DNA of 64,000 bases. Source: Candidatus Latescibacterota bacterium (GTDB lineage: Bacteria; Latescibacterota; UBA2968). Under the pieces are notes generated by a model. That model was not told where the DNA came from. It searched no databases and saw only the letters and a program-made list of their open reading frames with translations. The translations under genes and the position numbers were made by a program. How positions within the stretch are numbered: the stretch's first letter is position 1; every line of letters starts with the position of its first letter. Positions 1-47,336 of the stretch are shown in pieces. The DNA lies in the NCBI GenBank assembly GCA_965204745.1, contig OZ242010.1, positions 1,472,001 through 1,536,000 on the forward strand, written 5' to 3'.

Positions 1-744
1 CGGATGTAAGGGGAGATGCATCACGAAAAATCAGCGCGGCCGCGACCTGCGTGTTTCAATCCGCTCCCCTCACGGATGTAAGGGGAGATATGTCATTCCT
101 TGCTGTGATTGATGGTTTGAAAGACTTGTTTCAATCCGCTCCCCTCACGGATGTAAGGGGAGATTCAATGAGGGTGATGCGCTGATTTTTTCGTCGCTCA
201 TGTTTCAATCCGCTCCCCTCACGGATGTAAGGGGAGATAGCAGGCCGCGGCGGTGGTGCGCGAGCTAGGAAAAGTTTCAATCCGCTCCCCTCACGGATGT
301 AAGGGGAGATTTCGCGCTCGCGCTCGCCTGGTTCATCGGTATCGAGTTTCAATCCGCTCCCCTCACGGATGTAAGGGGAGATCGAGGCATTCCAGCGCAT
401 GGTGCGCGGCATTTCAAGTTTCAATCCGCTCCCCTCACGGATGTAAGGGGAGATTTACGCTTGGAAAGGTCGCGACATCGCTCGGACAGGTGTTTCAATC
501 CGCTCCCCTCACGGATGTAAGGGGAGATTTTATACGCGCTCTCGATGGCCTTTTCCGCGCTCGTTTCAATCCGCTCCCCTCACGGATGTAAGGGGAGATT
601 CGATTTGGTGCATTTTGTTGCTGTGTTTCATCTCGGTTTCAATCCGCTCCCCTCACGGATGTAAGGGGAGATTGATCCTCTCCTCGCTCCTCGATGAGAG
701 ATCCGCAGTTTCAATCCGCTCCCCTCACGGATGTAAGGGGAGAT
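1..744 (-). CRISPR. Type I-C CRISPR array (truncated by window start): 10 complete 37-bp repeats plus 1 partial, 10 spacers of 34-38 bp
   Basis: Identical repeat GTTTCAATCCGCTCCCCTCACGGATGTAAGGGGAGAT at 53,128,202,274,346,418,492,563,636,708 and partial at 1-17. The reverse complement ends ATTGAAAC and has the hairpin CTCCCCTTAC/GTGAGGGGAG followed by an 11-nt tail, typical of I-C. Confidence 0.99.
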
Positions 745-969
745 GCTGGTTGTTGTAACCAGCGGCACAACAAAAAGTTACACAAGCGGATGCGCGAACC
801 TCCTTCCTTTGCTTCAATCCGCTCGAAAAGTAAGAGGGAATATTGCGATGTAAATTGTTATTGGTCATAAGTTTAGTCCATTGCGCGAAAGCACGGGCAA
901 AATGCCATCACTCCCCTTTCGCGCCAAAAAATAATTCAAGCCGATCTCCTCATCGGATCGAGGAAAGGG
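745..969 (-). promoter_or_regulatory. CRISPR leader
   Basis: Non-coding, partly AT-rich stretch between cas2 and the first repeat. Contains GCGCGAA motifs (792, 883), an inverted TTCGCGC (918) and IHF-like AT tracts, as described for type I-C leaders. Confidence 0.85.
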
Positions 970-1260
970 CTAAAGAATAAGCGGCTCGTTTAGGTCTATG
1001 GGTTCTTTAAGCCCGTGATGCTCCGTCTTGTTTTTGGCGTTTTCGTCCAGATGGTAAAACCTCAGGGAATCCTGCTTGGGATCGATTTCTTTTAGCAGAC
1101 GATCCCTGAGTGTTGCCCATTCCGTTTTTCCAAGTTGGCATTCAAAAAGCGATTTTTGAGCGCGAACACCGTAATCCTCACAGGCTCTTGCCACTCGGCG
1201 CAACCGCTTTTGCCCGGCGCGGTCAGATGTGGAAACGTCATAAGCGATCAAGACAAACAT
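970..1260 (-). CDS. cas2: CRISPR-associated endoribonuclease Cas2
   Basis: MFVLIAYDVST...RLRRVARACEDYGVRAQKSLFEC...DSLRFY; start reset to ATG at 1260. Confidence 0.97.
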   Translation of the reverse strand: MFVLIAYDVSTSDRAGQKRLRRVARACEDYGVRAQKSLFECQLGKTEWATLRDRLLKEIDPKQDSLRFYHLDENAKNKTEHHGLKEPIDLNEPLIL

Positions 1261-1294
1261 GTTCGATCTCTTTCCCTTATCCACAAAGGGAGAT
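1261..1294 (-). repeat. Degenerate solitary CRISPR repeat abutting the cas2 start codon
   Basis: Minus strand ATCTCCCTTTGTGGATAAGGGAAAGAGATCGAAC-ATG: same 5' ATCTCCC, a TCCCTT/AAGGGA stem and a GATCGAAC tail (consensus GATTGAAAC). Confidence 0.65.
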
Positions 1295-1298
1295 GGGG

Positions 1299-2360
1299 TT
1301 ATTTGTAGATGAATGGGATATAGTCGGGGATATCGCCGCGGAGTTTTCGGGCCAACAATTTTGATTGGATGCTGAACACTTGCCCGATGCGGATATTTTG
1401 CTTGAACAAGGGATGCTTGATTTCCGTTTGTTTGCGCCGTTGCCAAGCTCGGATGACCTCTCTCCTGCCCCGGTCGGTAAATTCCACAGCACCGCCTTCT
1501 CGCACGCGAAAGTGTTTGGCCTCAATTTGGCGGCGGTTGATCAGGGTCAACGCCAGCCGCTCTGCCAAACAGGGGCGAAATTCTTCCATCAGATCCAAAG
1601 CGCAGGCTGGCCTCCCGGCCCGCGTCGCATGAAGCCAGCCGACATAGGGATCCAGCCCGGCAGTCGTCAACGCGGCCAAACAATCGTGGCGGATCAGCGC
1701 GTAAATGAAGGAAAGCAAACAGTTGATTCGATCCCGAGGCGGACGGCGCGTGCGCGTTGTGAACGCGAAGGTTTCGCGCTGTTGTTTGAGCATGTGTTGA
1801 AAGACCGAAAAATAGATCTTGGCCCCAAGGCCCTCAAATCCCCGGATCGGGTCGAGTGCCTCTCGGAGCGTGCGATCTGACGTAGCAGACGGCGCGTTGC
1901 CGAGTTGGCGAATCAGCCTGGCGAGTTCGGCAACAGCATCCGACAATGCCGTGCGATCCGAATCCCGATCTGCTTCCCGGGCGGATCGCAAGAGGTTTGC
2001 ACGCGAGTTTTGCAGTTTGCCGGCGACGAACTGCTGGGCAATGCGGGCCGCATCCTCTGGGCTATCCGCCGCGGCGTACTGCGCACGGCGCAACAAGTAG
2101 CGCGTGTCGCCACTGCCAATGACCTGTGCCAGCAGATAGCCGCTCTCCGTGTGATAATGCACTGCCACTTGGTGTTGCCAGCACAATGCCATCGCCGGCG
2201 GCGTGACCACGACTTGCCCAAACGCGCAGATGCTTTCCAAGTGGTGAATCGGCACGCGCAAGCGGGTTTGCCTTTCGATTTCGACTCGGAGCGTCAGATG
2301 ATCTCGGTGTACCACTGTCTTGGGCGTCGTCAGGTAAAGGGTGTTTTGAATCTCGGCCAT
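1299..2360 (-). CDS. cas1: CRISPR-associated endonuclease Cas1 (type I-C)
   Basis: NTLYLTT, RGFEGLGAKIYF, RTRRPPRDRINCLLSF, GLDPYVGWLH, LALDLMEEFRP motifs; ATG at 2360 with SD AGAGGA. Confidence 0.98.
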   Translation of the reverse strand: MAEIQNTLYLTTPKTVVHRDHLTLRVEIERQTRLRVPIHHLESICAFGQVVVTPPAMALCWQHQVAVHYHTESGYLLAQVIGSGDTRYLLRRAQYAAADSPEDAARIAQQFVAGKLQNSRANLLRSAREADRDSDRTALSDAVAELARLIRQLGNAPSATSDRTLREALDPIRGFEGLGAKIYFSVFQHMLKQQRETFAFTTRTRRPPRDRINCLLSFIYALIRHDCLAALTTAGLDPYVGWLHATRAGRPACALDLMEEFRPCLAERLALTLINRRQIEAKHFRVREGGAVEFTDRGRREVIRAWQRRKQTEIKHPLFKQNIRIGQVFSIQSKLLARKLRGDIPDYIPFIYK

Positions 2361-2370
2361 AATGTCCTCT

Positions 2371-2406
2371 GTTTCAATCTGTTCCCTCACGGATGTCAGG
2401 GGAGAT
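2371..2406 (-). repeat. Near-perfect solitary CRISPR repeat at the cas4/cas1 junction
   Basis: GTTTCAATCTG-TTCCCTCACGGATGTCAGGGGAGAT: 33 of 37 positions match the array repeat; overlaps the last cas4 codons. Confidence 0.95.
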
Positions 2407-3046
2407 ACACGTCCCGATAGGCCCGCGCCAGTGCAGAAGGGGCACTGGTGATTTCGGGCAGGCAATGATCAAAAAGCGAACACTCCGAACACTGGGGTTT
2501 GTGAATGGCGTTGGGGACTGCCTCCGCTTCGACGAGCCGATGCACGGCTTCAACCGCCTGTTCGGTGAGGCGGCGCAGTTCCTCGGTAAATACCACCTCT
2601 CGGCGGTGCTTGCTGCTCGCATGGAAGATGGCCCCTCGGGGAATGTCCAGCCCAAACATTTCTTCCAAGCACAGGGCTTGCGCGCAAAGTTGGGCATCGT
2701 CATTGTCAAATTTTCGTCGGCGACCCTTTTTGAACTCAACCGGAAACAACGATCCGTCGGGATGGCGTTCGACGATGTCGCACCTGCCGCTGAGCCGCAG
2801 CCGATCTGACCAAACGGGCAAGGCACGCAACAGCGTCACACCCCCAACCGTTTCGTAACCAGAAACATCGGCCTGCTCGTGGAACTGATTACCTACCAAG
2901 GTGTGTTCGTTGTCGCTAAAGGTGCCTTCGACATGAATCAGGGCAGCCCGGCGCGGACAATAAAGATACTGGTTGATGGCAGAGAGCGGGATGCTCCGAT
3001 CTGCATCATCTGATGGACTAGGCAGAACAACCATTGCTTTACTCAT
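2396..3046 (-). CDS. cas4: CRISPR-associated exonuclease Cas4
   Basis: LSAINQYLYCPRR, GRCDIVE, PVEFKKG, AQLCAQALCLEEM, C-terminal CSECSLFDHC Fe-S cysteines. Confidence 0.97.
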   Translation of the reverse strand: MSKAMVVLPSPSDDADRSIPLSAINQYLYCPRRAALIHVEGTFSDNEHTLVGNQFHEQADVSGYETVGGVTLLRALPVWSDRLRLSGRCDIVERHPDGSLFPVEFKKGRRRKFDNDDAQLCAQALCLEEMFGLDIPRGAIFHASSKHRREVVFTEELRRLTEQAVEAVHRLVEAEAVPNAIHKPQCSECSLFDHCLPEITSAPSALARAYRDVYLP

Positions 3047-3083
3047 GTTTTAATCCGCTTCCCTCACTGAGGTAAAGAGAGAA
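3047..3083 (-). repeat. Degenerate solitary CRISPR repeat abutting the cas4 start codon
   Basis: GTTTTAATCCGCTTCCCTCACTGAGGTAAAGAGAGAA, 30/37 identical and ungapped; its last base is directly followed by the cas4 ATG. Confidence 0.9.
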
Positions 3084-3094
3084 GCGGACTTGCT

Positions 3095-4051
3095 TTACTC
3101 ATGACGTTTATTCAAACGCACGCCGGCAGGCAGGTCGGTGTCGTCCCATCCGCAGTTGACCTCGTAATCGGCAAAAGATTTGGGAAATTCCACGCCATCC
3201 TTCAACTTCACCTCAATGCCCTCAAAGAGTTTGTGGGCATGAGCGCAACCGAGGCGGGCTTCTCGCCTGTTCTGCGCGGCGTTGTTCTCGTGCTGAGTGC
3301 CCACATGCTCAAAGTCGTAGATGCCGCGCACCACCATTTCGCCGCGAGCAGCGGAGCGGTCGTGCTCAAACATGTGGTTGAGCGCGTCAAAGAGAACCTC
3401 GAGGTCAGCGTTGGTGAACCCCGTGCGTTCGGCAAAAGCAGGAGACACGTAAGCCTTGGCCATATAGAGGGCGTAAGGCACAATGTGCTTATTGCCCATG
3501 GTGCGTTCCTTCTCGGCGTCCTCCTCTTTGGTCACGGCCATGCGAGTGATGGAGATCTCCATCGGGGTGATAGAATGGTACGATTGACCGAAGGTGATCT
3601 GTACCGGACCGCGCACTTGGCCCCAAGCGGAGCCTCTCATAATGTCGTCGCCGACAGAAAGCACACCACCAAAGGTGCGGACATCAAAGAACTCGCGGCA
3701 CAGCCATTTCATGGCGGCTTCCTGCTTTTCGGATTTGGACGCACCCGAGGCCAAGCCCTCACCGCTTTTCTCAATGCCATTATTGATCTCGTTGTTGAGC
3801 ACGGCGCCCTGCTTGATCAGCAGATTATAGCCGTTGGCACCATTCTCCCCAACCCGCTCCGGGGCGAACATTTCGACGAAGTTCCGCACTTTGCGCTTGA
3901 GGCACACATCGGAGACGATGCCACGGTTGGTATTGGGATCAAGACGCGGCATGTTGCCGGCATCGGGATCGCCATTGGGGTTGCCATTCGTGACCTCGAA
4001 GATCAGCAACACATCGTGCCGATTGGTGAGAATGTCGTTGATTTCGTTCAT
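3095..4051 (-). CDS. cas7: Cas7/Csd2 (type I-C backbone)
   Basis: NGNPNGDPDAGNMPRLD, VSDVCLKRKVRN, FFDVRTFG, QVRGPVQ, MFEHDRSAARG. Confidence 0.98.
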   Translation of the reverse strand: MNEINDILTNRHDVLLIFEVTNGNPNGDPDAGNMPRLDPNTNRGIVSDVCLKRKVRNFVEMFAPERVGENGANGYNLLIKQGAVLNNEINNGIEKSGEGLASGASKSEKQEAAMKWLCREFFDVRTFGGVLSVGDDIMRGSAWGQVRGPVQITFGQSYHSITPMEISITRMAVTKEEDAEKERTMGNKHIVPYALYMAKAYVSPAFAERTGFTNADLEVLFDALNHMFEHDRSAARGEMVVRGIYDFEHVGTQHENNAAQNRREARLGCAHAHKLFEGIEVKLKDGVEFPKSFADYEVNCGWDDTDLPAGVRLNKRHE

Positions 4052-4072
4052 CGTTCAATCTCCTGTCAGGGG

Positions 4073-4489
4073 TTATTGGTTATCGGCTTCTTTGTTTTGC
4101 TTGGCCGCGTCGCGGGCGACGCGGTCGGCGGCTTTTTGCTGGTAAAAGCCGATGGCGAACCGCCCCTGCGCGTGCAGGTCCAGCGTGCGGGGGAATTGGT
4201 TGACTTGGGTCAACACATCTTGAATGGCTTCGTCGAGGAAACGCTCATGGTTTTCATATTTGTCGGACTTGCCGATTTTGCTGAGGTGATGGCGGTTGAG
4301 CTTGAGGAGGATGGGAAACACCGAGGCCGGCGAGGCCATGGCGGTGCCAAAGTACCGTTCGACAACGCCAGCACCTTCAAGCTTATAGTCATGCGCCTTG
4401 GCCTGAGTTTCGGCGAGTACGGCGAGCAACCGCCCGCATTGATAGGCCGCATCGCCCGCATCGGCGGTTTGTCTTTCTGCAATTTCCAT
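4073..4489 (-). CDS. cas11: Probable Cas11c small subunit translated from an internal start in cas8c
   Basis: In-frame ATG (MEIAERQ) with SD AAAGGA upstream, just before the YxxGRL motif; internal Cas11 translation is established for type I-C. Confidence 0.7.
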   Translation of the reverse strand: MEIAERQTADAGDAAYQCGRLLAVLAETQAKAHDYKLEGAGVVERYFGTAMASPASVFPILLKLNRHHLSKIGKSDKYENHERFLDEAIQDVLTQVNQFPRTLDLHAQGRFAIGFYQQKAADRVARDAAKQNKEADNQ

Positions 4490-5926
4490 AATGTCGTCCT
4501 TTCTGTTTCGGTTTAGAATGAGTTTCGCCAAGGCGAAACGGGAATGGTTCAATAATGCCGTGCTCCCATCGCGCGCTATATCAACGCGCAGGCGGTTCAG
4601 CATGGGATGCAGTAAAGTGAGTGAAGGGGCAACACCTTCTAGTGCTGCGCGAAACAACTGAGCGGTCACTTCCGGTTGCAAATACTTCGCCTCTCGCACC
4701 GTAGTACAGGCCAGTCGGAATAGGGCCAACGGCGGCATTTTTTCCTTGCCGGAAGACGGGCGTACAGGCTCCAACTCAAGGTCGCTGAACCAGCGTTGCA
4801 GGTTTTCCGTAGCGGTTTCTAAGGTGGTCTGAATCCAGTGGCGCACGACGATCCGACCACTGTTGCCCGCGAGGGTGACAGCATGGAACTGCTCCTGCCG
4901 CAATGCCTCGCGCTCTTGACCAGACCATGGGGATTTGAGGAAATCCGCCACCGCCTTGGGGTCAGCTTGGTTGAGTAAATCACTCCAAGTGCTCGTGGCG
5001 TTCGTTTTGTTGCGAGTCCAGAAGCAACACGATGCCTGCCCCAAGCGAATGGAATGATCCTCACGACCAAGCATCCAGTTAAGCGCGGTGCAATAGGCGG
5101 TGACCGCCCGGGTGGAAGTGGAAGCATTGAGACTTTGCTCAAAACCGTAAGAAACGAAAGCATCCTTATCAAATGAGACAATCGCCGCACCAAAGGCTTG
5201 GGTGTTGGGCACGCCTTGCACTTTGGGGTTATGAGTCAGTGCAATGGGCTGATCGCGTTCACCAGTGATCAAGCAGTGACCGTGAGGCGCGTCTGTCTCA
5301 TGGGCTTCATTTTCCTTCTCGAATTGCCGCCGCCAAAAGGGCCTGATGTGGTTTTCGTCTTCCAGCAACAATTGTTCTCTCAAGCGGAATGAGAAATTGT
5401 CATTCCCTAACTTGACTTCCTCGCCATCGGCTTTGGTGATCCACCAAGCGGATTTTTCTTGTGGCTTGGGATCGGAACTGGTACCCCAGCGCAAAAAAGA
5501 TGGCATCTGCCCCGGCTCGGGCTTGAAAGCCAGCAGGGACTTCAATGCCTGACTGCGTGTGTCCCCATGGGCCTGTTCAATTTGTGCCCAAAAGTCATCG
5601 TATTTCCGGCAATTGTTTTTTATTCGATCCTTCCGCTGGTTTTCAGACATGGATTTTTCCGGGTCCGTATCGAGACCGAATACAGCCGTGATGCTGTCCG
5701 CCATGAACTCGGCCACGCCACCGGCATTCTTGGGCCGCGTGGTTTGCGGGCAACTAAATTCTTTTCCTTTTCCCTTCCTTTCTCCCACAGTTTCTACGGG
5801 ACCCTGTCCGACAAAGTTGCCCATATCGTCCAGCGCGATGATCCATCGCACCGCTTTGGATTTGAAAGCCAAATTGTCGAGGAGTTTTCGCGAAATTGCA
5901 AAGTCGTACAGATGTTTCAGCAACAT
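4073..5926 (-). CDS. cas8c: Cas8c/Csd1 large subunit
   Basis: HCLITGE, AAIVSFDKDAFVSYG, NSGRIVVRHW, AYQCGRLLAVL, QGRFAIGFYQQK; start reset to MLLKHL. Confidence 0.95.
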   Translation of the reverse strand: MLLKHLYDFAISRKLLDNLAFKSKAVRWIIALDDMGNFVGQGPVETVGERKGKGKEFSCPQTTRPKNAGGVAEFMADSITAVFGLDTDPEKSMSENQRKDRIKNNCRKYDDFWAQIEQAHGDTRSQALKSLLAFKPEPGQMPSFLRWGTSSDPKPQEKSAWWITKADGEEVKLGNDNFSFRLREQLLLEDENHIRPFWRRQFEKENEAHETDAPHGHCLITGERDQPIALTHNPKVQGVPNTQAFGAAIVSFDKDAFVSYGFEQSLNASTSTRAVTAYCTALNWMLGREDHSIRLGQASCCFWTRNKTNATSTWSDLLNQADPKAVADFLKSPWSGQEREALRQEQFHAVTLAGNSGRIVVRHWIQTTLETATENLQRWFSDLELEPVRPSSGKEKMPPLALFRLACTTVREAKYLQPEVTAQLFRAALEGVAPSLTLLHPMLNRLRVDIARDGSTALLNHSRFALAKLILNRNRKDDIMEIAERQTADAGDAAYQCGRLLAVLAETQAKAHDYKLEGAGVVERYFGTAMASPASVFPILLKLNRHHLSKIGKSDKYENHERFLDEAIQDVLTQVNQFPRTLDLHAQGRFAIGFYQQKAADRVARDAAKQNKEADNQ

Positions 5927-5928
5927 GG

Positions 5929-6732
5929 TCAGGCTCCGTTCGGTTCGAGGATTTCGATTTCGTCGGGGTGGCAAACCAAGGTGGAATCTATGATCTTGGC
6001 ACGGAAGAAACAGGCTCTCGGTCGGGCCAATTCGCCGACACAACGCGGGGTATTCTTTTTCGGTTTGGGCCCTAGTTCATCAGGGCGTTTCCAGCGAAAG
6101 CCCTGGGCGCGGGCGTTAGGCGAAAAAACATCGTAGAGCATCAAGCCCAAGTCCTCCTCGGGTTGCCGCCAACTGGTGCCAAGTTCGGTGGTTCGATCTT
6201 CCAGGGAGGCTTGGGGATCATCTACCCACTCGAAGTCCGCCGCAAATTCGCGCATGCCCAAGGCGGGGCGGTGGAAGCACTTGCCCTGCTGGGCGCGGCG
6301 TTTGAATTCAGCCAAGTACTTCACTGGTGGGTCGGTTTTGGGATTCGCCAACGGCGTGGTACGCAACTCGGCACTGATGATGTACTCCACCTCCTGCAAT
6401 GCCAGCATGTTGCGCTGGGTGCCGGCTGGTGCGCCGCCCCCGGCCTCAATGGGCGAGACTTTCTCCGGCTGTTTCATCCATTGACCAACATTGCGAATGC
6501 TGATAACTGATTGCACTTCATTGCGCCGAATCGAGGCCCAGCGACCTCGCCGAATTATCCGGATGGTAGCGACGAGATAGCGAACTTGCGGCTCCCAAAA
6601 GATGGCCTCCAAGATGCCTCGGGCAACAGAAGGCGTCATAATTGGGTAACTGACGCGCTCCACTTTCATTTCGGGGCGCGTGAAACATGCCCAATCGCCC
6701 CAAACTCTCAGGTGTACTTGGTTATCTTTCAT
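5929..6732 (-). CDS. cas5: Cas5c/Cas5d crRNA-processing subunit
   Basis: VWGDWACFTRPEMKVERVSYPIMTPSVARGILEAIFW, GKCFHRPALGMREF, DLGLMLYD. Confidence 0.97.
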   Translation of the reverse strand: MKDNQVHLRVWGDWACFTRPEMKVERVSYPIMTPSVARGILEAIFWEPQVRYLVATIRIIRRGRWASIRRNEVQSVISIRNVGQWMKQPEKVSPIEAGGGAPAGTQRNMLALQEVEYIISAELRTTPLANPKTDPPVKYLAEFKRRAQQGKCFHRPALGMREFAADFEWVDDPQASLEDRTTELGTSWRQPEEDLGLMLYDVFSPNARAQGFRWKRPDELGPKPKKNTPRCVGELARPRACFFRAKIIDSTLVCHPDEIEILEPNGA

Positions 6733-8972
6733 AACAAAAAATCCTCAGTCGGATGTTGGTCAACAACTACGCCGAGATGTTCGTGATAGGCGGCCTCTCT
6801 GAGTACATACAGTTCCATACCGGGCAACAGCGGGCAAAGCAACCCCATTGCGTAGAGTTTTTGAAAATCACGCGAATGCAGATTCACCATAAAGCGTTGG
6901 AGACCGCGCAAGTCCTTGCGCGTAAAACGCGGCCCATCTTGGGTGCGCTCCCGGATCGCGGCGACCTCTTTTAAGGATTCCCCCCAGGGCGCAATGACGG
7001 CCCGGGTGTCATCGCTAATTACCTTCGCTTTGCGGGCCACTTCTCGGAAACGCAACTCTTTTCGATCTTCCTGAATAGAGCATTCCCGTTTGACATGATG
7101 ATCCGTGGGCACGTATTCAAAAAGCTCTCTAAAGTAACGCCCAAACAACGTCGGATCGCCAGACAAATCGTCCGTATCCAATTGATCCAGCAACCGCGCC
7201 GCAATGTCCGTGGCGACGCGATAGACGCCGACTGGCAACTTGGCGTCCATTGGCCGGAACACCACCACGCGCCCCTTGCTCGGCAGGCGTCCTTCCCGAT
7301 TGCACCGCCCTGCTGCCTGCACAATGGAGTCCAGCGGCCCCAAGGCGCGATAAACCAACGGGAAGTCGATATCCACCCCGGCCTCTACCACCTGCGTAGA
7401 AACCAACCAACAAAATCGGCCTTCCCTTAAACGCCGCCGAACCTTTTTAATCACTTGGGTTCGGTGTTCTGCACACATAGCAGACGAAAGGTGCAATACA
7501 CTCCTCAACTTGGCTTCCAACTCATCTTCTCTCAAGCCTTGCTCTTTCAAAGAATCCCTCAATAGTTCCCACCATTCGGCGGCCTGCTTGCGCGTATTCA
7601 CCACCCCCAAGGCTCGAGGTTCGCTTATCCATTCCGCAGCCAATTCCGACCAATCGCTCTCTGTCTTTCGCACCTCGTACACTACCCGCCCCAACTCGTT
7701 AAACAAATCGCCGGGTTGCGATACAATTTCCTTTACTTCATTCGCATCAAACCCCTGCGGCAACGATGGGCTTTGTCTAAAGGCCGGTTGGGTAGCCGTG
7801 GAAAAAACAAAACTCACTCGGTAGTGTTTCTCGAGATCGCGCAATACATGTAGCAATGGATCGAGCAGATGTGAAGGCAAGGTCTGCACCTCATCCAGCA
7901 ACACCACGGAATTTGCGATGTTGTGTAGTTTTCGGCACTTGGAGGTGCGGTTGGCAAAGAGGGACTCGATGAACTGCACCGAGGTGGTGACGATGATCGG
8001 CGCGTCCCAGTTCTCCGCCGCCAACTCCTCGGGGGACCGACCTTGTTCGTCATTATCATCTTTTGAAGCCACGGCCGAATGGTGCTCAATCACAATGCCT
8101 CTGTTTTTCGGATCGAGCACTTTGCGGTACTCGGCGGCGTTTTGCTCGATAATTGACAGGTACGGTATGACCACGATCACCCGTTGCATTCCATGCCGCC
8201 GCGCATGTTCCAAGGCAAAGGCCATGCCCGAAAGCGTTTTGCCCCCACCTGTCGGCACGGTCAGAGAAAAGAAGCCCGCTGGCTCTGCCGCCTTTGCCAA
8301 GCACTCTTCAAACACCCTGTTACGCAACGCATTGAGTTCGCCAGAAGAATCAAACTTGCCCCGGTGCGCTTGCAGTCGCTCCAGCAACGACGTTGCATCC
8401 AACTTCACCGAGCGTCGTTCTTGGCCGCGGCTAAATTGTTCCGTATCCAGAAAATCCGCATCCACCAAGCAGGAAAACAACATTCGCACGTAGAATTCTG
8501 TGATGGCGGGATCGTCAAATTCCGGTTCGGCTAACTCGTTGGGAATTTTGCCCAGTTCCTCTTCAAACCGGTTGACCAGAGGATCGAGCCCGTTCATAGC
8601 ATCGTACTTTTTCCCATAAACCAATGCCTGCAAATCGCTCAAGTCATGCAACCCCGCATGATGCCCGGCAACGGCAAAAGCTGGGCCGCCCCACCCTCGT
8701 TGAAAAGCCAGCGCAGCACCATACACCGCATGATGTGTTTCAGCGGATACAAGGCGTTTGCCTGCCAGATATTCTTGGAATGGCTGCCGATATTTTCCAA
8801 GGTCGTGCAACAGACCTGCGAGGTGGGCTTCATCTGCCAACCCAAAGGGAGCGGCGAATTGTCGGGCCAATTCCGCGACATTGTGCAGATGGGTAGAAAG
8901 CAATTGCCAGCGCGATTGATTCGGATCGCGTTCTCCGGTCTCTGTTTCGGCTGTGTGGGCGTAATAGTTCAT
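6729..8972 (-). CDS. cas3: Cas3 HD nuclease-helicase
   Basis: YYAHT..HL..VA, LLHDLGKY HD domain; TVPTGGGKT, DEVQ, STATQP, STQVVEAGVDIDF, QAAGRCNREG. Confidence 0.98.
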   Translation of the reverse strand: MNYYAHTAETETGERDPNQSRWQLLSTHLHNVAELARQFAAPFGLADEAHLAGLLHDLGKYRQPFQEYLAGKRLVSAETHHAVYGAALAFQRGWGGPAFAVAGHHAGLHDLSDLQALVYGKKYDAMNGLDPLVNRFEEELGKIPNELAEPEFDDPAITEFYVRMLFSCLVDADFLDTEQFSRGQERRSVKLDATSLLERLQAHRGKFDSSGELNALRNRVFEECLAKAAEPAGFFSLTVPTGGGKTLSGMAFALEHARRHGMQRVIVVIPYLSIIEQNAAEYRKVLDPKNRGIVIEHHSAVASKDDNDEQGRSPEELAAENWDAPIIVTTSVQFIESLFANRTSKCRKLHNIANSVVLLDEVQTLPSHLLDPLLHVLRDLEKHYRVSFVFSTATQPAFRQSPSLPQGFDANEVKEIVSQPGDLFNELGRVVYEVRKTESDWSELAAEWISEPRALGVVNTRKQAAEWWELLRDSLKEQGLREDELEAKLRSVLHLSSAMCAEHRTQVIKKVRRRLREGRFCWLVSTQVVEAGVDIDFPLVYRALGPLDSIVQAAGRCNREGRLPSKGRVVVFRPMDAKLPVGVYRVATDIAARLLDQLDTDDLSGDPTLFGRYFRELFEYVPTDHHVKRECSIQEDRKELRFREVARKAKVISDDTRAVIAPWGESLKEVAAIRERTQDGPRFTRKDLRGLQRFMVNLHSRDFQKLYAMGLLCPLLPGMELYVLREAAYHEHLGVVVDQHPTEDFLL

Positions 8973-9255
8973 GATTTAGGTACCTTTTTTGACAGGTCGT
9001 TTTTTTTCAAGCGCGGATTTGTTTTTTTGCTACGGGAGAAAACGAGTACAGAGCGTATTGTCCCTGTGTCGAATATACTGAAAATTTGTTTAGGTCGCAA
9101 TGGGTTTTTCAGTGGTTTGAGACCGCTTGTGGCCTTCGGTTGTCCGGCGATGGTCGAAACGAAAAGCCACCTGCTTTGCAACGGCGGCTTGCAGGGAAAA
9201 AATAAAAATATGCCGTTGCGCCCGCTCCCCATGATCTATCGACGTATCTTCGGGT

Positions 9256-9283
9256 TTGACAAGTCTTCAATTTTTAGTATGTT
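9256..9283 (+). promoter_or_regulatory. Putative sigma70 promoter of the membrane protein gene
   Basis: TTGACA-16 nt-TATGTT upstream of the 9420 ORF. Confidence 0.5.
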
Positions 9284-9419
9284 AGACCGACGGTCGTTAA
9301 TGGTCTTTGCGTGGCAGGGGGTTGTCGGCCTTCTCGAAATTCTGTGACTTGTCTCAAAACCTTATCGGCCCGGCTCGGTTACAGAATACCCGTTCACAGA
9401 TTCAGGGCCAAAAGGAGCG

Positions 9420-10952
9420 TTGGATATGGGCGAAGTGTGGCGTCAGATGACGCATTTCTCGGAGGGATATGTGCTGCCGTTGATGAATGTGCTCGTGCCC
9501 CTGGGTATTCTGGTGGTCGGTTGGCTGATCGCCTTGGTGGCGCGGATGCTGACCTACCGGCTGTTGCGGCGCACGGAATTGGACGACAAACTCGCCCGCT
9601 TGACCCTCGGGGAAGCGGGCGCGTCGAAAATCCAGCCGGAAAAGTGGATCAGCAAAGGCGTGTATTACTTGCTGATGTTGTTCGTCCTCGTGGCGTTTTT
9701 TCAATTTATCGGCCTGACACAGGTCACCGAACCGCTCAACCAGTTGCTGGTGCAACTCTTTGCCTTCTTGCCCTTGCTGGTCAGCGCCGGATTGTTGCTG
9801 TTGCTGGCTTGGATCGTCGCCCGTTTGTTATGCGCGCTGGTCGAGCGCGTGCTGTCGGCGGCGAAGCTGGAGGAACGCCTCGGCGAGACCGCCGAAGATC
9901 GAGATCCCAGCCGGCTTTCCATTTCCAAAAGTGTGGGCAATGCCGTGTATTGGCTGGTATTTCTCATCTTTTTGCCGGCCGTGCTGGGCGCCTTGGGGTT
10001 AGAGGGGTTGATGACCCCGGTGCGGGAGATGGTGGGCAAGGCCATGGGGTTCGTGCCCAATTTGCTCGCCGGCGGTTTGATCCTGCTCGTGGGCTGGTTG
10101 GGTGCGCGAATCACGCAGCGCATCGTGGTCAATTTGCTCACCGCCAGCAATCTGGACCAAACCGGCAAAAAAGCCGGGTTGGACGCGGTCTTGGGAGAGC
10201 GATCCTTTTCCAGCCTGGTCGGCTGGGTGCTCTACTACGCCATTTTCATTTTGGCGATCATCGCCGCACTCGATGCCTTGCAGTTCGAGGTCATCTCGAG
10301 ACCCGCCAGCGCCATGTTGGGCCACATTTTTGACGCCATTCCGTCTATTTTCACCGCGGGCCTGGTTCTGATCGTGGCCTATATGGTGGGGCGATTGGTC
10401 CAAGAGATGGTCGTCGGGCTACTGACTAAAATCGGCTTCAACGAACTTCTCGAGCGGCTGGGAATCAGCGCGGGCGAAGACGCAGAAGAACGCAGCCCAG
10501 CCGTGTGGGCGGGGCACCTCAGCCTGGTGGTCATCCTGCTTTTAGCGGCCATAGAAGCGGCCGATCTGCTGGGGTTTTTGGGGCTTCAGGCCCTGCTGAG
10601 CGAATTTACCTACTTTGCCGGGCAAGTGGGCATGGGGCTGATCATTTTCATCCTGGGCCTCTATCTGGGCAATCTGGTCGGCGATATGGTGTCGAGAAAA
10701 GAGATGGCCCAAAGCAAACTGGTGGCTTCGGGCGCGCGCACGGTCGTGATCGTCCTCGCATCGGCGATGGCCCTGAGGCAGATGGGCATTGCCAACGACA
10801 TCATCAACATGGCTTTCGGGCTGTTTTTGGGGGGCATTGCCGCGGCGGTGGCCTTGGCCTTTGGGTTGGGATGCCGCGATTTGGCAAGCGATGCGGTCAA
10901 GGGTTGGTTGGCTGTGCTGGGCAAAAAGGAGGAAGACGATTCCGAGCAATAA
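9420..10952 (+). CDS. Mechanosensitive-channel-related membrane protein with repeated conserved TM-helix modules (CmpX-like)
   Basis: Repeated FxPxLxxAxLILLVGWLxAR helices; ends ALAFGLGCRDLA; no MscS cytoplasmic domain visible. Confidence 0.75.
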   Translation: MDMGEVWRQMTHFSEGYVLPLMNVLVPLGILVVGWLIALVARMLTYRLLRRTELDDKLARLTLGEAGASKIQPEKWISKGVYYLLMLFVLVAFFQFIGLTQVTEPLNQLLVQLFAFLPLLVSAGLLLLLAWIVARLLCALVERVLSAAKLEERLGETAEDRDPSRLSISKSVGNAVYWLVFLIFLPAVLGALGLEGLMTPVREMVGKAMGFVPNLLAGGLILLVGWLGARITQRIVVNLLTASNLDQTGKKAGLDAVLGERSFSSLVGWVLYYAIFILAIIAALDALQFEVISRPASAMLGHIFDAIPSIFTAGLVLIVAYMVGRLVQEMVVGLLTKIGFNELLERLGISAGEDAEERSPAVWAGHLSLVVILLLAAIEAADLLGFLGLQALLSEFTYFAGQVGMGLIIFILGLYLGNLVGDMVSRKEMAQSKLVASGARTVVIVLASAMALRQMGIANDIINMAFGLFLGGIAAAVALAFGLGCRDLASDAVKGWLAVLGKKEEDDSEQ

Positions 10953-29979: not shown

Positions 29980-30200
29980 TGCAGTGGTCAGGCCGCCCCG
30001 CTCAACCCCTTCGGTAAGACGTAAGAGGTGAGACGTAAGAGGTGAGACGTAGGGGCGATGCCCCTGTGCTCGCCCGAAGATAAATGCAGTGGTCAGTAGT
30101 CAGTAGTCAGTGGTCAGTCCCCGCCCAACAACCCCAAAAGACGAGAAGCGAATTGTAGGGACGATGCCCCCGTGCTCGCCCGAAAATCAGTGGTCAGTGG
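29980..30200. repeat. Composite repeat cluster (heptamers GAGACGT/CAGTRGT and two GTAG REPs)
   Basis: AAGACGTAAGAGGTGAGACGT tandem; CAGTGGTCAGTAGTCAGTAGT; REPs at 30049-30075 and 30155-30181. Confidence 0.8.
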
Positions 30201-31360: not shown

Positions 31361-31512
31361 AAAAGGCGTGAGAGGCAAAAGGCGTGAGAGGCAAGATGTG
31401 AGAGGCGAGAGGCGTGAGAGGCAAGACGCGAGAGGCAAGACGTGAGAGGCAAGACGTGAGAGGCGAGACGTGAGAGGCAAGACGCGAGAGGCAAGACGTG
31501 AGAGGCGAGAAG
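31361..31512. repeat. Heptamer tandem microsatellite (about 21 units of GAGAGGC/AAGACGT variants)
   Basis: GCGTGAGAGGCAAAAGGCGTGAGAGGCAAGATGTGAGAGGCGAGA... with 7-bp periodicity. Confidence 0.9.
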
Positions 31513-33425: not shown

Positions 33426-33559
33426 AATAAACTCCTTTGGGAAGTGAGAGGCGGGAGGTGAGAGGCGAGAAGTGAGATGGAAGTTTAGCCACGAGCGGGG
33501 TACAACTGGCGACAGCCAGTTCAGACGCGCTTTATCGATCAGATTCTCGGTCATGCATT

Positions 33560-47181: not shown

Positions 47182-47336
47182 CGCGTATAACATGAACATC
47201 CTACACCTTGCCTCTTGCTTCTTACCTCTTACCTCTTACCTCTTACCTCTTACCTCTTACCTCTTGCCTCTTACCTCTTGCCTCTTGCCTCTTACCTCTT
47301 GCCTACTTTAGCGCGTATAACATGAACATCCTACAC
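47176..47336 (+). repeat. Heptamer array (CTTACCT/CTTGCCT x14) flanked by a perfect 31-bp direct repeat
   Basis: CTTTAGCGCGTATAACATGAACATCCTACAC at 47176-47206 and 47306-47336. Confidence 0.93.

What the first reader, a model, noticed from the sequence alone, without database searches (positions are those of the whole stretch)
1261..4072. cas operon punctuated by solitary CRISPR repeats in front of cas4, cas1, cas2 (and possibly cas7): candidate Cas5/Cascade-controlled mRNA autoregulation
Seen: repeat-derived sequences in array orientation lie at successive gene junctions. They are 3047-3083 (30/37, touching the cas4 ATG), 2371-2406 (33/37, ending just before the cas1 SD), 1261-1294 (touching the cas2 ATG) and a collapsed copy at 4053-4072 before cas7. 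Established: type I-C Cas5d cuts its repeat at the 3' base of the hairpin, leaving an 11-nt 5' handle on which Cascade assembles; repeat-like regulatory RNAs are known near cas genes (CreTA/CreR, solitary repeat units). Inference: the adaptation module is laid out like an array whose spacers are whole genes. Cas5 could cut the polycistron into single-gene units, and Cas5/Cas7 loading on each handle would cover the SD/start codon. That would be a post-transcriptional feedback tying adaptation-protein synthesis to free Cascade subunits and crRNA supply. I do not know of a described case with a repeat at every adaptation-gene junction.
Basis: partly seen in the sequence, partly recalled or inferred. 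Interest (0 to 1): 0.92.

Follow-up and report, generated by a model that had tools for sequence, protein, structure and literature searches.

The report
CRISPR repeat copies between cas genes
Copies of the CRISPR repeat have been inserted just in front of the spacer-acquisition genes of this type I-C system and its relatives, where they now carry ribosome-binding sites and even start codons; whether the Cas5 nuclease also acts on them is untested.

Summary
Two of the four reported copies are certainly derived from the repeat. They are 2371-2406 (cas4/cas1) and 3047-3083 (cas7/cas4), with covariance-model E about 1e-5. They are two of only three such sites outside the array in the 5.5-Mb genome. 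1261-1298 (cas1/cas2) is not significant alone, but it is an insertion at a junction where relatives hold clear repeat copies. 4053-4072 is chance; it is the cas7 Shine-Dalgarno.

The pattern is shared by a clade. 18 of 39 related loci hold 23 junction copies, nearly all in sense orientation. Nine end flush with the downstream start codon. In seven the start codon is the TTG inside the repeat's ATTGAAAC. None was found in 24 classical I-C loci.

The copies are insertions into ancestrally overlapping gene junctions. At cas7/cas4 the old start/stop overlap was duplicated, and this opens a small upstream ORF in 6 of 6 loci.

Hairpins decay with age while the 3' handle persists, and all 10 cas4/cas1 copies have lost the G at the Cas5 cut site.

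Best reading: ectopic repeat insertions co-opted as signals for translation initiation and coupling. Cas5/Cascade autoregulation remains possible for the young copies but is untested. No RNA data were available.

The parts
1..744 (-). CRISPR array. The window holds the leader-proximal end. The 37-nt repeat forms a 10-bp hairpin followed by the 11-nt handle CGGATTGAAAC.
   Evidence: 194 repeats in the genome; degenerate copies at the far end; fold -17.4 kcal/mol; different leader-end spacers in different runs
745..969 (-). Leader between cas2 and the array.
   Evidence: homologous leaders in L041, L040
811..845 (-). Leader pseudo-repeat (degenerate copy; exact run TTCAATCCGCTC).
   Evidence: fitting score 7; model match at 811-836, E 0.16; similar leader hits in L050, L069 and L114
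933..969 (-). Possible degenerate repeat copy directly after the cas2 stop. It lies in sequence that L041 and L040 lack at this place.
   Evidence: score 10; model E 8.8; 7-bp hairpin; comparison of the cas2 ends
970..1260 (-). cas2
   Evidence: TIGR01573 E 1.6e-17
1261..1298 (-). cas1/cas2 junction element. It is a 38-nt insertion, weakly repeat-like, and touches the cas2 ATG.
   Evidence: score 6; not found by the model; insertion relative to the TAATG overlap of relatives; fold not better than shuffles
1299..2360 (-). cas1 (type I-C)
   Evidence: TIGR03640 E 7e-127
2371..2406 (-). cas4/cas1 junction repeat copy (33/37). Its first 11 nt encode the last cas4 codons and the stop. The separate cas1 SD AGAGGA follows at 2364-2369.
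   Evidence: E 1.2e-5; carries the loop specific to this window's array repeat; cas4 C-terminus replaced
2396..3046 (-). cas4
   Evidence: TIGR00372 E 4.4e-36
3047..3083 (-). cas7/cas4 junction repeat copy (30/37). Its 3' end is flush with the cas4 ATG.
   Evidence: E 1.6e-5
3052..3090 (-). Extended 14-bp hairpin of the cas7/cas4 element. It hides the cas4 SD and the first handle bases.
   Evidence: -24 kcal/mol for window 3035-3105, z -3.5
3034..3047 (.). Copy 1 of the 14-bp direct duplication TTGCTTTACTCATG (holds the present cas4 start).
   Evidence: read; the same duplication is in L039/L045
3090..3103 (.). Copy 2 of the 14-bp duplication (holds the ancestral cas4 start overlapping the cas7 stop).
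3064..3102 (-). 12-codon upstream ORF. It starts at the ancestral cas4 ATG, runs through the hairpin and stops 17 nt before the cas4 ATG.
   Evidence: such an ORF is present in 6 of 6 loci with a cas7/cas4 element
3095..4051 (-). cas7 (Csd2)
   Evidence: TIGR02589 E 6.8e-87
4053..4072 (-). cas7 Shine-Dalgarno region. It is not a repeat copy.
   Evidence: score 3 = chance; not found by the model; no fold
4073..5926 (-). cas8c (Csd1)
   Evidence: TIGR01863 E 4.6e-99
5929..6732 (-). cas5 (Cas5c/Cas5d). It has F, K, Y at the positions of the published catalytic triad.
6729..8972 (-). cas3

Best explanation
The junction elements are ectopic copies of the array's own repeat, inserted immediately upstream of cas gene start codons in a horizontally spreading clade of type I-C loci. 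They have been kept because their 3' half now works as the translation-initiation and coupling region of the downstream gene.

The repeat's 3' part reads GGGGAG-CGGA-TTG-AAAC. That is a Shine-Dalgarno, a spacer, a possible TTG start and an in-frame TGA.

Copies end flush with an ATG, or donate their TTG as the start codon, or donate a stop codon to the upstream gene.

At cas7/cas4 the insertion duplicated the old start/stop overlap. A short upstream ORF therefore starts on the cas7 stop, reads through the hairpin and ends at or near the cas4 ATG. In this way translation would open the hairpin and hand ribosomes on.

With age the 5' arm and the hairpin decay and only the SD/handle/start part persists.

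Shown: origin from the repeat, insertion polarity, positions relative to start codons, the ORFs, and hairpin decay. Inferred: that these signals are used by ribosomes, and how the copies got there. The window's two young copies may in addition be bound or cut by Cas5c.
For: Repeat origin. Fitting scores are 28 and 23 against a random maximum of 14. Model E values are about 1e-5. These are two of three such sites outside the array in the genome.

Clade-wide pattern. There are 23 copies scoring 11 or more in 18 of 39 loci. In 137,031 coding positions the rate of such scores is 5e-5 and the maximum is 12. Sense hits number 37 and antisense hits 4 in 313,892 bases.

Offsets of the 23 copies. 9 are flush with the start codon, 7 have the start TTG inside ATTGAAAC, and the other 7 lie from +1 to -23. 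In L046 and L047 that TTG is the only possible cas2 start. In L058 and L063 the only alternative is two codons further on.

Insertion into ancestral overlaps. ATGAGTGA (-8) at cas7/cas4 is kept in L047, L051, L073, L074, L076, L077. TAATG (-1) at cas1/cas2 is kept in 19 loci.

Duplicated start/stop flanks in REF/L045, L060 and L069.

Relay upstream ORF in 6 of 6 loci with a cas7/cas4 element. It ends 17-18 nt before the cas4 ATG, 3 nt before it, or overlaps it as ATGA.

Decay. Mean hairpin energy is -18.9 kcal/mol in arrays (n=32), -8.3 at cas4/cas1 (n=10), -7.6 at cas7/cas4 (n=5), -3.0 at cas1/cas2 (n=8) and -5.7 in control junctions (n=20). The handle stays 8-11 of 11. Among 10 loci it is more alike (0.82) than four-fold sites of cas1 (0.60).

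Adaptation still works. Different leader-end spacers are seen in different runs.
Against: No expression or ribosome data exist.

In flush copies the GGAG core lies 11-13 nt from the ATG, which is longer than optimal.

The window's cas4/cas1 copy is followed by a separate SD, so that copy is not needed for initiation.

Full conservation of the 11-nt handle is more than an SD and spacer would need. However, non-repeat junctions also appear to keep their last ~10 nt before the ATG (by eye, not counted).

The upstream ORF could be a by-product of the duplication. A 12-17-codon open frame is not rare by chance.

The handle-versus-synonymous-site comparison used alignment to a consensus and non-independent pairs.
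Confidence: 0.45

Rival explanations
1. Cas5c/Cascade-responsive elements. Cas5c recognises the junction copies as it does array repeats. It would cut between the stem and the handle, severing the SD from the start codon and leaving the upstream mRNA with a protected 3' hairpin. Alternatively it, with Cas7, stays bound on the handle over the start codon. Synthesis of Cas4/Cas1/Cas2 would then depend on free Cas5c and on the supply of pre-crRNA.
For: [quoted passage not shown]

cas7/cas4 copies keep AG|CGG in 4 of 5, and handles are 10-11 of 11.

The handle is better conserved than synonymous sites.

The window's cas4/cas1 copy carries the loop specific to this window's array repeat.

A solitary I-C repeat carried on a phage mRNA inhibits a I-C system (RacrIC1; passages of PMC10651486), so solitary repeats in mRNAs do engage I-C proteins.

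The Cas5 here is a Cas5c by family and by solved relatives.
Against: Hairpins are far weaker than in arrays and are gone at cas1/cas2.

All 10 cas4/cas1 copies have A, C or T instead of the G at the cut site, and 2 of them have CAG instead of CGG.

The window's cas7/cas4 copy buries CGGAU in a 14-bp stem.

Cutting would remove the SD from genes whose products are needed and evidently work.

This Cas5 has F and Y at two triad positions. That is within the variation reported for Cas5c, but its activity is unproven.

The nearest relative keeps both copies and intact cas genes, yet its genome has no array of this repeat family.
Confidence: 0.3
2. Neutral scars. The copies are accidents of recombination, gene conversion or integrase activity next to a very large array. 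They survive only where they do no harm. Their regularities reflect that filter, and their similarity to the repeat reflects youth.
For: Gains and losses are frequent on the Cas1 tree: at least 4, 6 and 3 changes for the three junctions among 36 rows.

Decay of hairpins is about as fast as at synonymous sites: 0.67 against 0.60 identity.

None was found in 24 classical I-C loci, so they are dispensable for type I-C.

The mosaic cas4/cas1 copy of the window suggests gene conversion from the array. It has the array-type stem-loop but the junction-type AAC.
Against: At least 7 copies now contain the downstream gene's start codon, and some contain the upstream gene's stop, so they are no longer without function.

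The strand bias is strong, 37 to 4.

Flush placement recurs at four different junctions.

The handle is kept above the synonymous level.
Confidence: 0.2
3. CreA/CreR-type mini-CRISPR. The junction copies give crRNA-like guides that steer Cascade to a promoter by partial complementarity.
For: Such elements are known in type I loci. CreA-like elements are said to occur in I-C (passage of 10.1101/2023.03.10.532045). 34% of I-C loci hold a repeat-like sequence (Table 1 of PMC10120712).
Against: There is no second pseudo-repeat 30-40 nt downstream; the copies are about 640-1100 nt apart.

None of five candidate pseudo-spacers has a seed match (8 of 10) with a TTN motif in 8900-9600, upstream of cas3 (0 hits).

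The 'spacers' are coding sequence.
Confidence: 0.03

Closest known systems
Standalone repeat-like sequences in cas loci (Shmakov et al., PMC10120712; abstract, section 21, Table 1 and passages seen)
   Same: Repeat-derived sequences lie outside the array and inside a CRISPR-cas locus. That survey counts them in 34% of 1206 I-C loci.
   Different: The survey describes them in long intergenic regions, mostly near cas3/cas8 or cas6, and as mini-arrays that target promoters. It does not discuss I-C positions in the text I could read (supplements closed). Here the copies are single, sit in short junctions flush with start codons of cas4/cas1/cas2, and no promoter target was found.
CreA/CreR degenerate mini-CRISPRs (10.1101/2023.03.10.532045, passages; PMC8501985 and PMC9458426, search listing only)
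   Same: Degenerate repeats within cas operons that tie Cas expression to Cas proteins.
   Different: Those act as DNA-targeting guides with two pseudo-repeats and a pseudo-spacer. Here there is no second repeat, no target, and any action would be in cis on the mRNA.
Viral solitary repeat units / RNA anti-CRISPRs (Racr, PMC10651486, passages seen)
   Same: A single repeat copy with a hairpin carried on an mRNA. RacrIC1 lies 11 nt after acrIC5 on a bicistronic RNA and acts on a I-C system.
   Different: Those are encoded by phages and plasmids and inhibit the host system. Here the copies are in the host's own cas operon and abut start codons.
Synthetic Csy4/Cas6f hairpins placed in mRNAs (PMC4604432, search listing and abstract start only; use as operon insulators is recalled, not from a call)
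   Same: A CRISPR repeat hairpin within an mRNA, so that a CRISPR endoribonuclease can control stability and translation.
   Different: Those are engineered. Natural use in a cas operon has not been shown here either.
Translational coupling by overlapping stop/start codons and by upstream ORFs that open a hairpin (general bacterial knowledge, recalled)
   Same: The cas7/cas4 element keeps an ORF that starts on the cas7 stop and ends at the cas4 start. The SD lies in the 3' arm of a hairpin.
   Different: The hairpin and the SD come from a CRISPR repeat.

Membership tests
Copy of this locus's CRISPR repeat | Similarity to the repeat beyond chance | tested here: met
   Met for 2371-2406 and 3047-3083. 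Inconclusive for 1261-1298, 933-969 and 811-845. Not met for 4053-4072.
Copy of this locus's CRISPR repeat | Same strand as the array, hairpin, and 11-nt handle | tested here: met
   Same strand. Handle 10/11 in both copies. Homologous stem pairs 9/10 (cas7/cas4) and 7/10 (cas4/cas1).
Type I-C CRISPR-Cas locus | cas3, cas5c, cas8c, cas7, cas4, cas1, cas2 in this order; no cas6 in the locus; repeat with hairpin and 11-nt handle | tested here: met
   repeat fold. A Cas6-family gene lies about 620 kb away.
Cas5c (Cas5d) substrate | Intact base of the stem and first three nucleotides after the cut site (here AG|CGG) | tested here: inconclusive
   cas7/cas4 copy: AG|CGG is kept, but CGGAU is paired in the best fold. 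cas4/cas1 copy: AA|CAG, so not kept. All 10 cas4/cas1 copies lack the G.
Cas5c (Cas5d) substrate | Cleavage leaving an 11-nt 5' handle with 5'-OH | not testable with these tools
   No RNA run listed.
Catalytic Cas5c | Triad Tyr/His - Lys - His of characterised enzymes | tested here: inconclusive
   The window's Cas5 has F - K - Y. The literature says only the Lys is invariant, and that His, Phe, Leu and Tyr occur at the other two positions.
CreA/CreR mini-CRISPR | Two pseudo-repeats around a spacer-sized segment | tested here: not met
   The copies are about 640-1100 nt apart and separated by whole genes.
CreA/CreR mini-CRISPR | Pseudo-spacer partly complementary to a promoter next to a PAM | tested here: not met
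   0 hits in 8900-9600. Only this region was scanned.
Racr / viral solitary repeat unit | Encoded by a mobile element, with its own promoter or beside acr genes | tested here: not met
   The copies lie inside the host cas operon. There are no promoter-like sites at the copies.
Intrinsic terminator | GC-rich hairpin followed by a U run | tested here: not met
   No terminator-like site at the junction copies. The T run after 933-969 lies 13 nt from the stem.

The most novel reading that the evidence does not exclude
In this clade the adaptation operon is wired to the crRNA-processing enzyme. Junction repeats place the SD in the hairpin's 3' arm and the start codon at the end of, or inside, the 11-nt handle. 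A single Cas5c cut, or Cas5c/Cas7 loading, would therefore switch off translation of cas4, cas1 or cas2 and cap the effector mRNA with a protected hairpin. Spacer acquisition would then be tuned to the balance between free Cas5c and pre-crRNA. This would be a natural counterpart of the engineered Csy4 operon insulators. Loss of the cut-site G in the cas4/cas1 copies would turn those into binding-only sites.
Probability: 0.3. Interest if true: 0.85.

Novelty: new variant of a known kind. Interest (0 to 1): 0.62.

Why it matters
How cells keep spacer acquisition low but responsive, relative to interference, is poorly understood.

Here a whole clade of type I-C systems, shared among sponge- and coral-associated bacteria of many phyla, has CRISPR repeats built into the start regions of cas4, cas1 and cas2.

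At the least this shows a new fate for CRISPR repeats: a source of ribosome-binding sites, start codons and stop codons, and a recurrent insertion process next to arrays.

If Cas5c acts on them, it would be the first natural case of a CRISPR endoribonuclease controlling its own operon's mRNA in cis. It could be tested with a few RNAs, one purified protein and reporter fusions.

Tried and rejected
Chance similarity is rejected for 2371-2406 and 3047-3083 and accepted for 4053-4072.

A general type I-C feature is rejected. 0 of 24 classical I-C loci with an array in the fetched stretch had a repeat-like hit upstream of the array (29 loci from 401 Pseudomonadota genomes).

A promoter or terminator role has no support: no such sites lie at the copies.

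A CreR-like guide is not supported: no seed-plus-PAM match upstream of cas3.

Co-evolution of junction copies with their own arrays holds only for the window and its nearest relative. The other cas4/cas1 copies share their own derived letters and do not follow their arrays.

The one double change in the cas7/cas4 stem between the window and L045 fits the extended hairpin. However, the A-to-G change also restores a pair in the canonical register, so I do not count it as covariation.

RNA evidence: no RNA holder was listed. Read laying used DNA contigs only. It showed leader-end spacer turnover and few listed differences in the copies (2387 T>C in one run), but 105 differences were not shown, so no conservation claim is made.

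The metagenome scan with Cas4 gave only 11 loci, none closer than 79%.

The Cas5 triad difference did not settle whether the enzyme is active.

Origin by Cas1-Cas2 off-target integration was considered. The duplications are 9-14 bp and the inserts about 42-47 bp, which do not match the 37-bp repeat and 34-37-bp spacers, so it is left open.

Supplements were closed; Table S5 and Supplementary file 3 of PMC10120712 may list where I-C repeat-like sequences lie and could bear on novelty.

That this arrangement is not in print rests on four searches and the passages read.

Full report
WHAT IS THERE. Window 1-9000 holds a complete type I-C locus on the minus strand. The genes are cas3 (6729-8972), cas5 (5929-6732), cas8c (4073-5926), cas7 (3095-4051), cas4 (2396-3046), cas1 (1299-2360) and cas2 (970-1260). 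A leader (745-969) and an array follow. The array runs out of the window and has 194 repeats in the genome, with its mutated repeats at the far end.

As transcribed, the 37-nt repeat is a 10-bp hairpin with a tetraloop, followed by the 11-nt handle CGGATTGAAAC (-17.4 kcal/mol). Across 24 different repeats of related arrays the hairpin is 100% paired and three pairs covary.

CHECK OF THE OBSERVATION. I aligned the repeat along the window (+1/-1/-2, repeat global).

- 2371-2406 scores 28 (33/37) and 3047-3083 scores 23 (30/37).
- The rest of the window reaches at most 9, and 40 simulated 64-kb sequences reach at most 14.
- A covariance model built from the 24 array repeats finds these two at E = 1.2e-5 and 1.6e-5.
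- In the whole 5.48-Mb genome, both strands, only one other site outside the array scores 15 or more.
- 1261-1294 scores 6, which is common by chance, and the model does not find it.
- 4053-4072 scores 3. It is the cas7 Shine-Dalgarno.

RELATIVES. Cas1 searches gave six orthologous loci among 40 relatives and 38 loci in species genomes. Cas1 identity is 75-93%. The records are labelled as MAGs of Latescibacterota, Bryobacterales, Binatia, Opitutales, Gemmatimonadota, Alphaproteobacteria and others. The runs that hold the window's DNA are mostly sponge metagenomes. All arrays use the same repeat family.

I scanned each locus with its own repeat, or with one family repeat where no array was fetched.

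- 23 junction copies score 11 or more, in 18 of 39 loci (the window counted).
- They comprise 5 at cas7/cas4, 10 at cas4/cas1, 7 at cas1/cas2 and 1 at cas3/cas5.
- Inside the cas genes of the same loci such scores occur at 5e-5 of 137,031 positions, with a maximum of 12.
- On the sense strand there are 37 hits of 11 or more in 313,892 bases. This count includes a few hits in coding sequence and unmasked array repeats of L055 and L077. On the antisense strand there are 4.
- A metagenome contig (L117) adds a cas7/cas4 and a cas1/cas2 copy.
- In a sample of 401 Pseudomonadota genomes, 30 had a I-C Cas1 over the cut-off. Of the 29 loci examined, 24 held an array in the fetched stretch. None of the 24 had a repeat-like hit upstream of its array.

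The feature therefore belongs to this clade, not to type I-C as such.

ANATOMY. The copies are insertions.

At cas7/cas4 the ancestral state is an 8-nt overlap (ATGAGTGA), kept in L047, L051, L073, L074, L076 and L077. Loci with a copy have that start/stop motif twice, once on each side of the insert. The duplication is 14 bp in the window (3034-3047 and 3090-3103) and in its nearest relative, and about 9-10 bp in L060 and L069.

At cas1/cas2 the ancestral state is a TAATG overlap (19 loci). The window has 38 nt inserted there, and L046, L047, L051, L056, L057, L058, L060, L063 and L066 have 29-49 nt or more.

At cas4/cas1 the copy replaces the last ~10 nt before the ATG. In the window and L045 it also replaces the last codons of cas4 (..VFDTxD* becomes ..VYLP*).

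The 3' end of the copy is placed with great regularity:
- 9 of 23 end flush with the start codon (..GGATTGAAAC|ATG);
- in 7 the start codon is the TTG inside ATTGAAAC;
- the remaining 7 lie from +1 to -23, several with a separate SD or a second partial handle.

In L046 and L047 the handle's TTG is the only start candidate between the upstream in-frame stop and the conserved Cas2 N-terminus. In L058 and L063 the only alternative is two codons further on. The handle's TGA also serves as a stop, for example for cas4 in L069.

In all 6 loci with a cas7/cas4 copy, the duplicated ancestral ATG, which overlaps the cas7 stop, opens an ORF of 12-17 codons. This ORF reads through the element. It stops 17-18 nt before the cas4 ATG (window, L045), 3 nt before it (L060, L069, L117), or overlaps it as ATGA (L059).

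STRUCTURE AND DECAY. The window's cas7/cas4 element folds into a 14-bp stem (3052-3090; -24 kcal/mol for 3035-3105; z -3.5). This stem contains the cas4 SD and the first five handle bases. The cas4/cas1 copy folds weakly, and the cas1/cas2 element no better than shuffles.

Across loci, the part before the handle has these mean folding energies:

| Set | n | Mean energy (kcal/mol) | z |
|---|---|---|---|
| Arrays | 32 | -18.9 | -5.3 |
| cas4/cas1 copies | 10 | -8.3 | -2.0 |
| cas7/cas4 copies | 5 | -7.6 | -1.2 |
| cas1/cas2 copies | 8 | -3.0 | 0 |
| Junctions without a copy (control) | 20 | -5.7 | -0.45 |

The handle stays 8-11 of 11. Over the 45 pairs among 10 loci with a cas4/cas1 copy, identity is 0.60 at four-fold sites of cas1, 0.82 in the handle and 0.67 in the stem and loop. 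The pairs are not independent, and the columns were set by alignment to a consensus.

All 10 cas4/cas1 copies have A, C or T in place of the G at the Cas5 cut site. The cas7/cas4 copies keep AG|CGG in 4 of 5.

The window's cas4/cas1 copy is a mosaic. Its stem-loop carries the loop seen only in this window's array repeat, while its 3' part has the junction-type AAC. This suggests gene conversion from the array.

On a Cas1 DNA tree of 36 rows the three junction states need at least 4, 6 and 3 changes. L080, L081 and L082 were left out because their Cas1 matches were short. L069's cas4/cas1 copy was scored as absent, although a degenerate copy lies inside its extended cas4.

WHAT ACTS ON THEM. 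The Cas5 is a Cas5c by family and by solved relatives. [quoted passage not shown]

This clade's Cas5 has F, K, Y where characterised enzymes have Y/H, K, H. The literature states that only the Lys is invariant.

By these rules the cas7/cas4 copies of several loci look like substrates. The cas4/cas1 copies do not look cleavable, and the cas1/cas2 copies have no stem.

The system is active in nature: contigs of different runs carry different spacers next to the first repeat.

The nearest relative (G018, Cas1 93%) keeps both copies and seven intact cas genes. Its single-contig genome has no array of this family (0 matches), and its locus sits in a different genomic context.

READING. The best-supported account is that repeat copies are recurrently inserted in front of cas start codons. 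They persist because the repeat's 3' half supplies a Shine-Dalgarno, a spacer, a start or stop codon and, at cas7/cas4, a relay ORF that preserves coupling. The rest decays.

But hairpin decay, loss of the cut-site G and the burial of the handle argue that cleavage is not what selection maintains.

A CreR-like guide function found no support. How the copies are inserted is unknown. The precise 3' boundary at the repeat's end and the short flanking duplications are noted but not explained.

COMPARISON AND NOVELTY. Repeat-like sequences in cas loci are known. They are counted in 34% of I-C loci (Table 1 of PMC10120712). Known classes are CreA/CreR mini-CRISPRs and viral solitary repeats.

I found no description of single repeats flush with, or containing, the start codons of cas4, cas1 and cas2. 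The supplements that might list I-C positions were closed.

I rate it a new variant of a known kind.

Noticed in passing
genome G000:C1 about 2440193-2440229, minus strand (outside the window): A third solitary repeat-like sequence (score 23; first 22 nt nearly identical to the repeat). It lies beside what looks like a tRNA gene, far from any cas gene.
   Followed up: partly
window 811-845; leaders of L050, L069, L114: A degenerate repeat-like sequence sits about 65-100 nt upstream of the first repeat in several related leaders, so it seems to be an old, conserved leader feature.
   Followed up: partly
L052, L054, L055, L070, L081, between cas7 and cas4: A gap of 420-485 nt with conserved sequence, probably an extra small gene, lies between cas7 and cas4 in five related loci. 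It was not identified.
   Followed up: no
L045 / G018:C1:363428-376486: The nearest relative has seven intact cas genes but no array of this repeat family anywhere in its 4.95-Mb single-contig genome. cas2 is followed directly by an oxidoreductase-like gene whose homologue in the window's genome lies about 2.4 Mb away.
   Followed up: partly
genome G000, many places; one copy at C1:1458176-1458478 next to the far end of the array: A repeat family of about 290 bp has some 90 copies at 73-91% identity in the genome (MITE- or IS-end-like).
   Followed up: no
window 5929-6732 (cas5) and its homologues in L045-L081: The clade's Cas5 has Phe and Tyr where characterised Cas5c enzymes have Tyr/His and His of the catalytic triad (AIFWEP, VKYL). 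A second I-C variant in the set has LYKP.
   Followed up: partly
genome G000:C1:851154-851531 (L083): A Cas6-family gene (PF01881, E 4e-28) lies about 620 kb from the window, which hints at a second CRISPR-Cas system.
   Followed up: no
L045-L082: Nearly the same cas4-cas1-cas2 module and repeat family (Cas1 75-93% identical) occur in MAGs labelled as at least eight different phyla or classes, joined to three different effector modules. This points to horizontal spread, apparently in sponge- and coral-associated communities.
   Followed up: partly
window 708-755 in runs X3, X6, X11: Contigs carry many different spacers next to the leader-proximal repeat (eight variants in X3), so strains in these samples keep acquiring spacers.
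   Followed up: partly
L060 about 5250-5290, inside the 5' part of cas4: An antisense repeat-like hit scores 15, above the coding-region maximum of 12 for sense hits.
   Followed up: no
window 30013-30051, 31363-31510, 33439-33477, 47207-47304: Short tandem repeats: units of 14 nt (up to 10 copies) and a 7-nt unit (14 copies).
   Followed up: no
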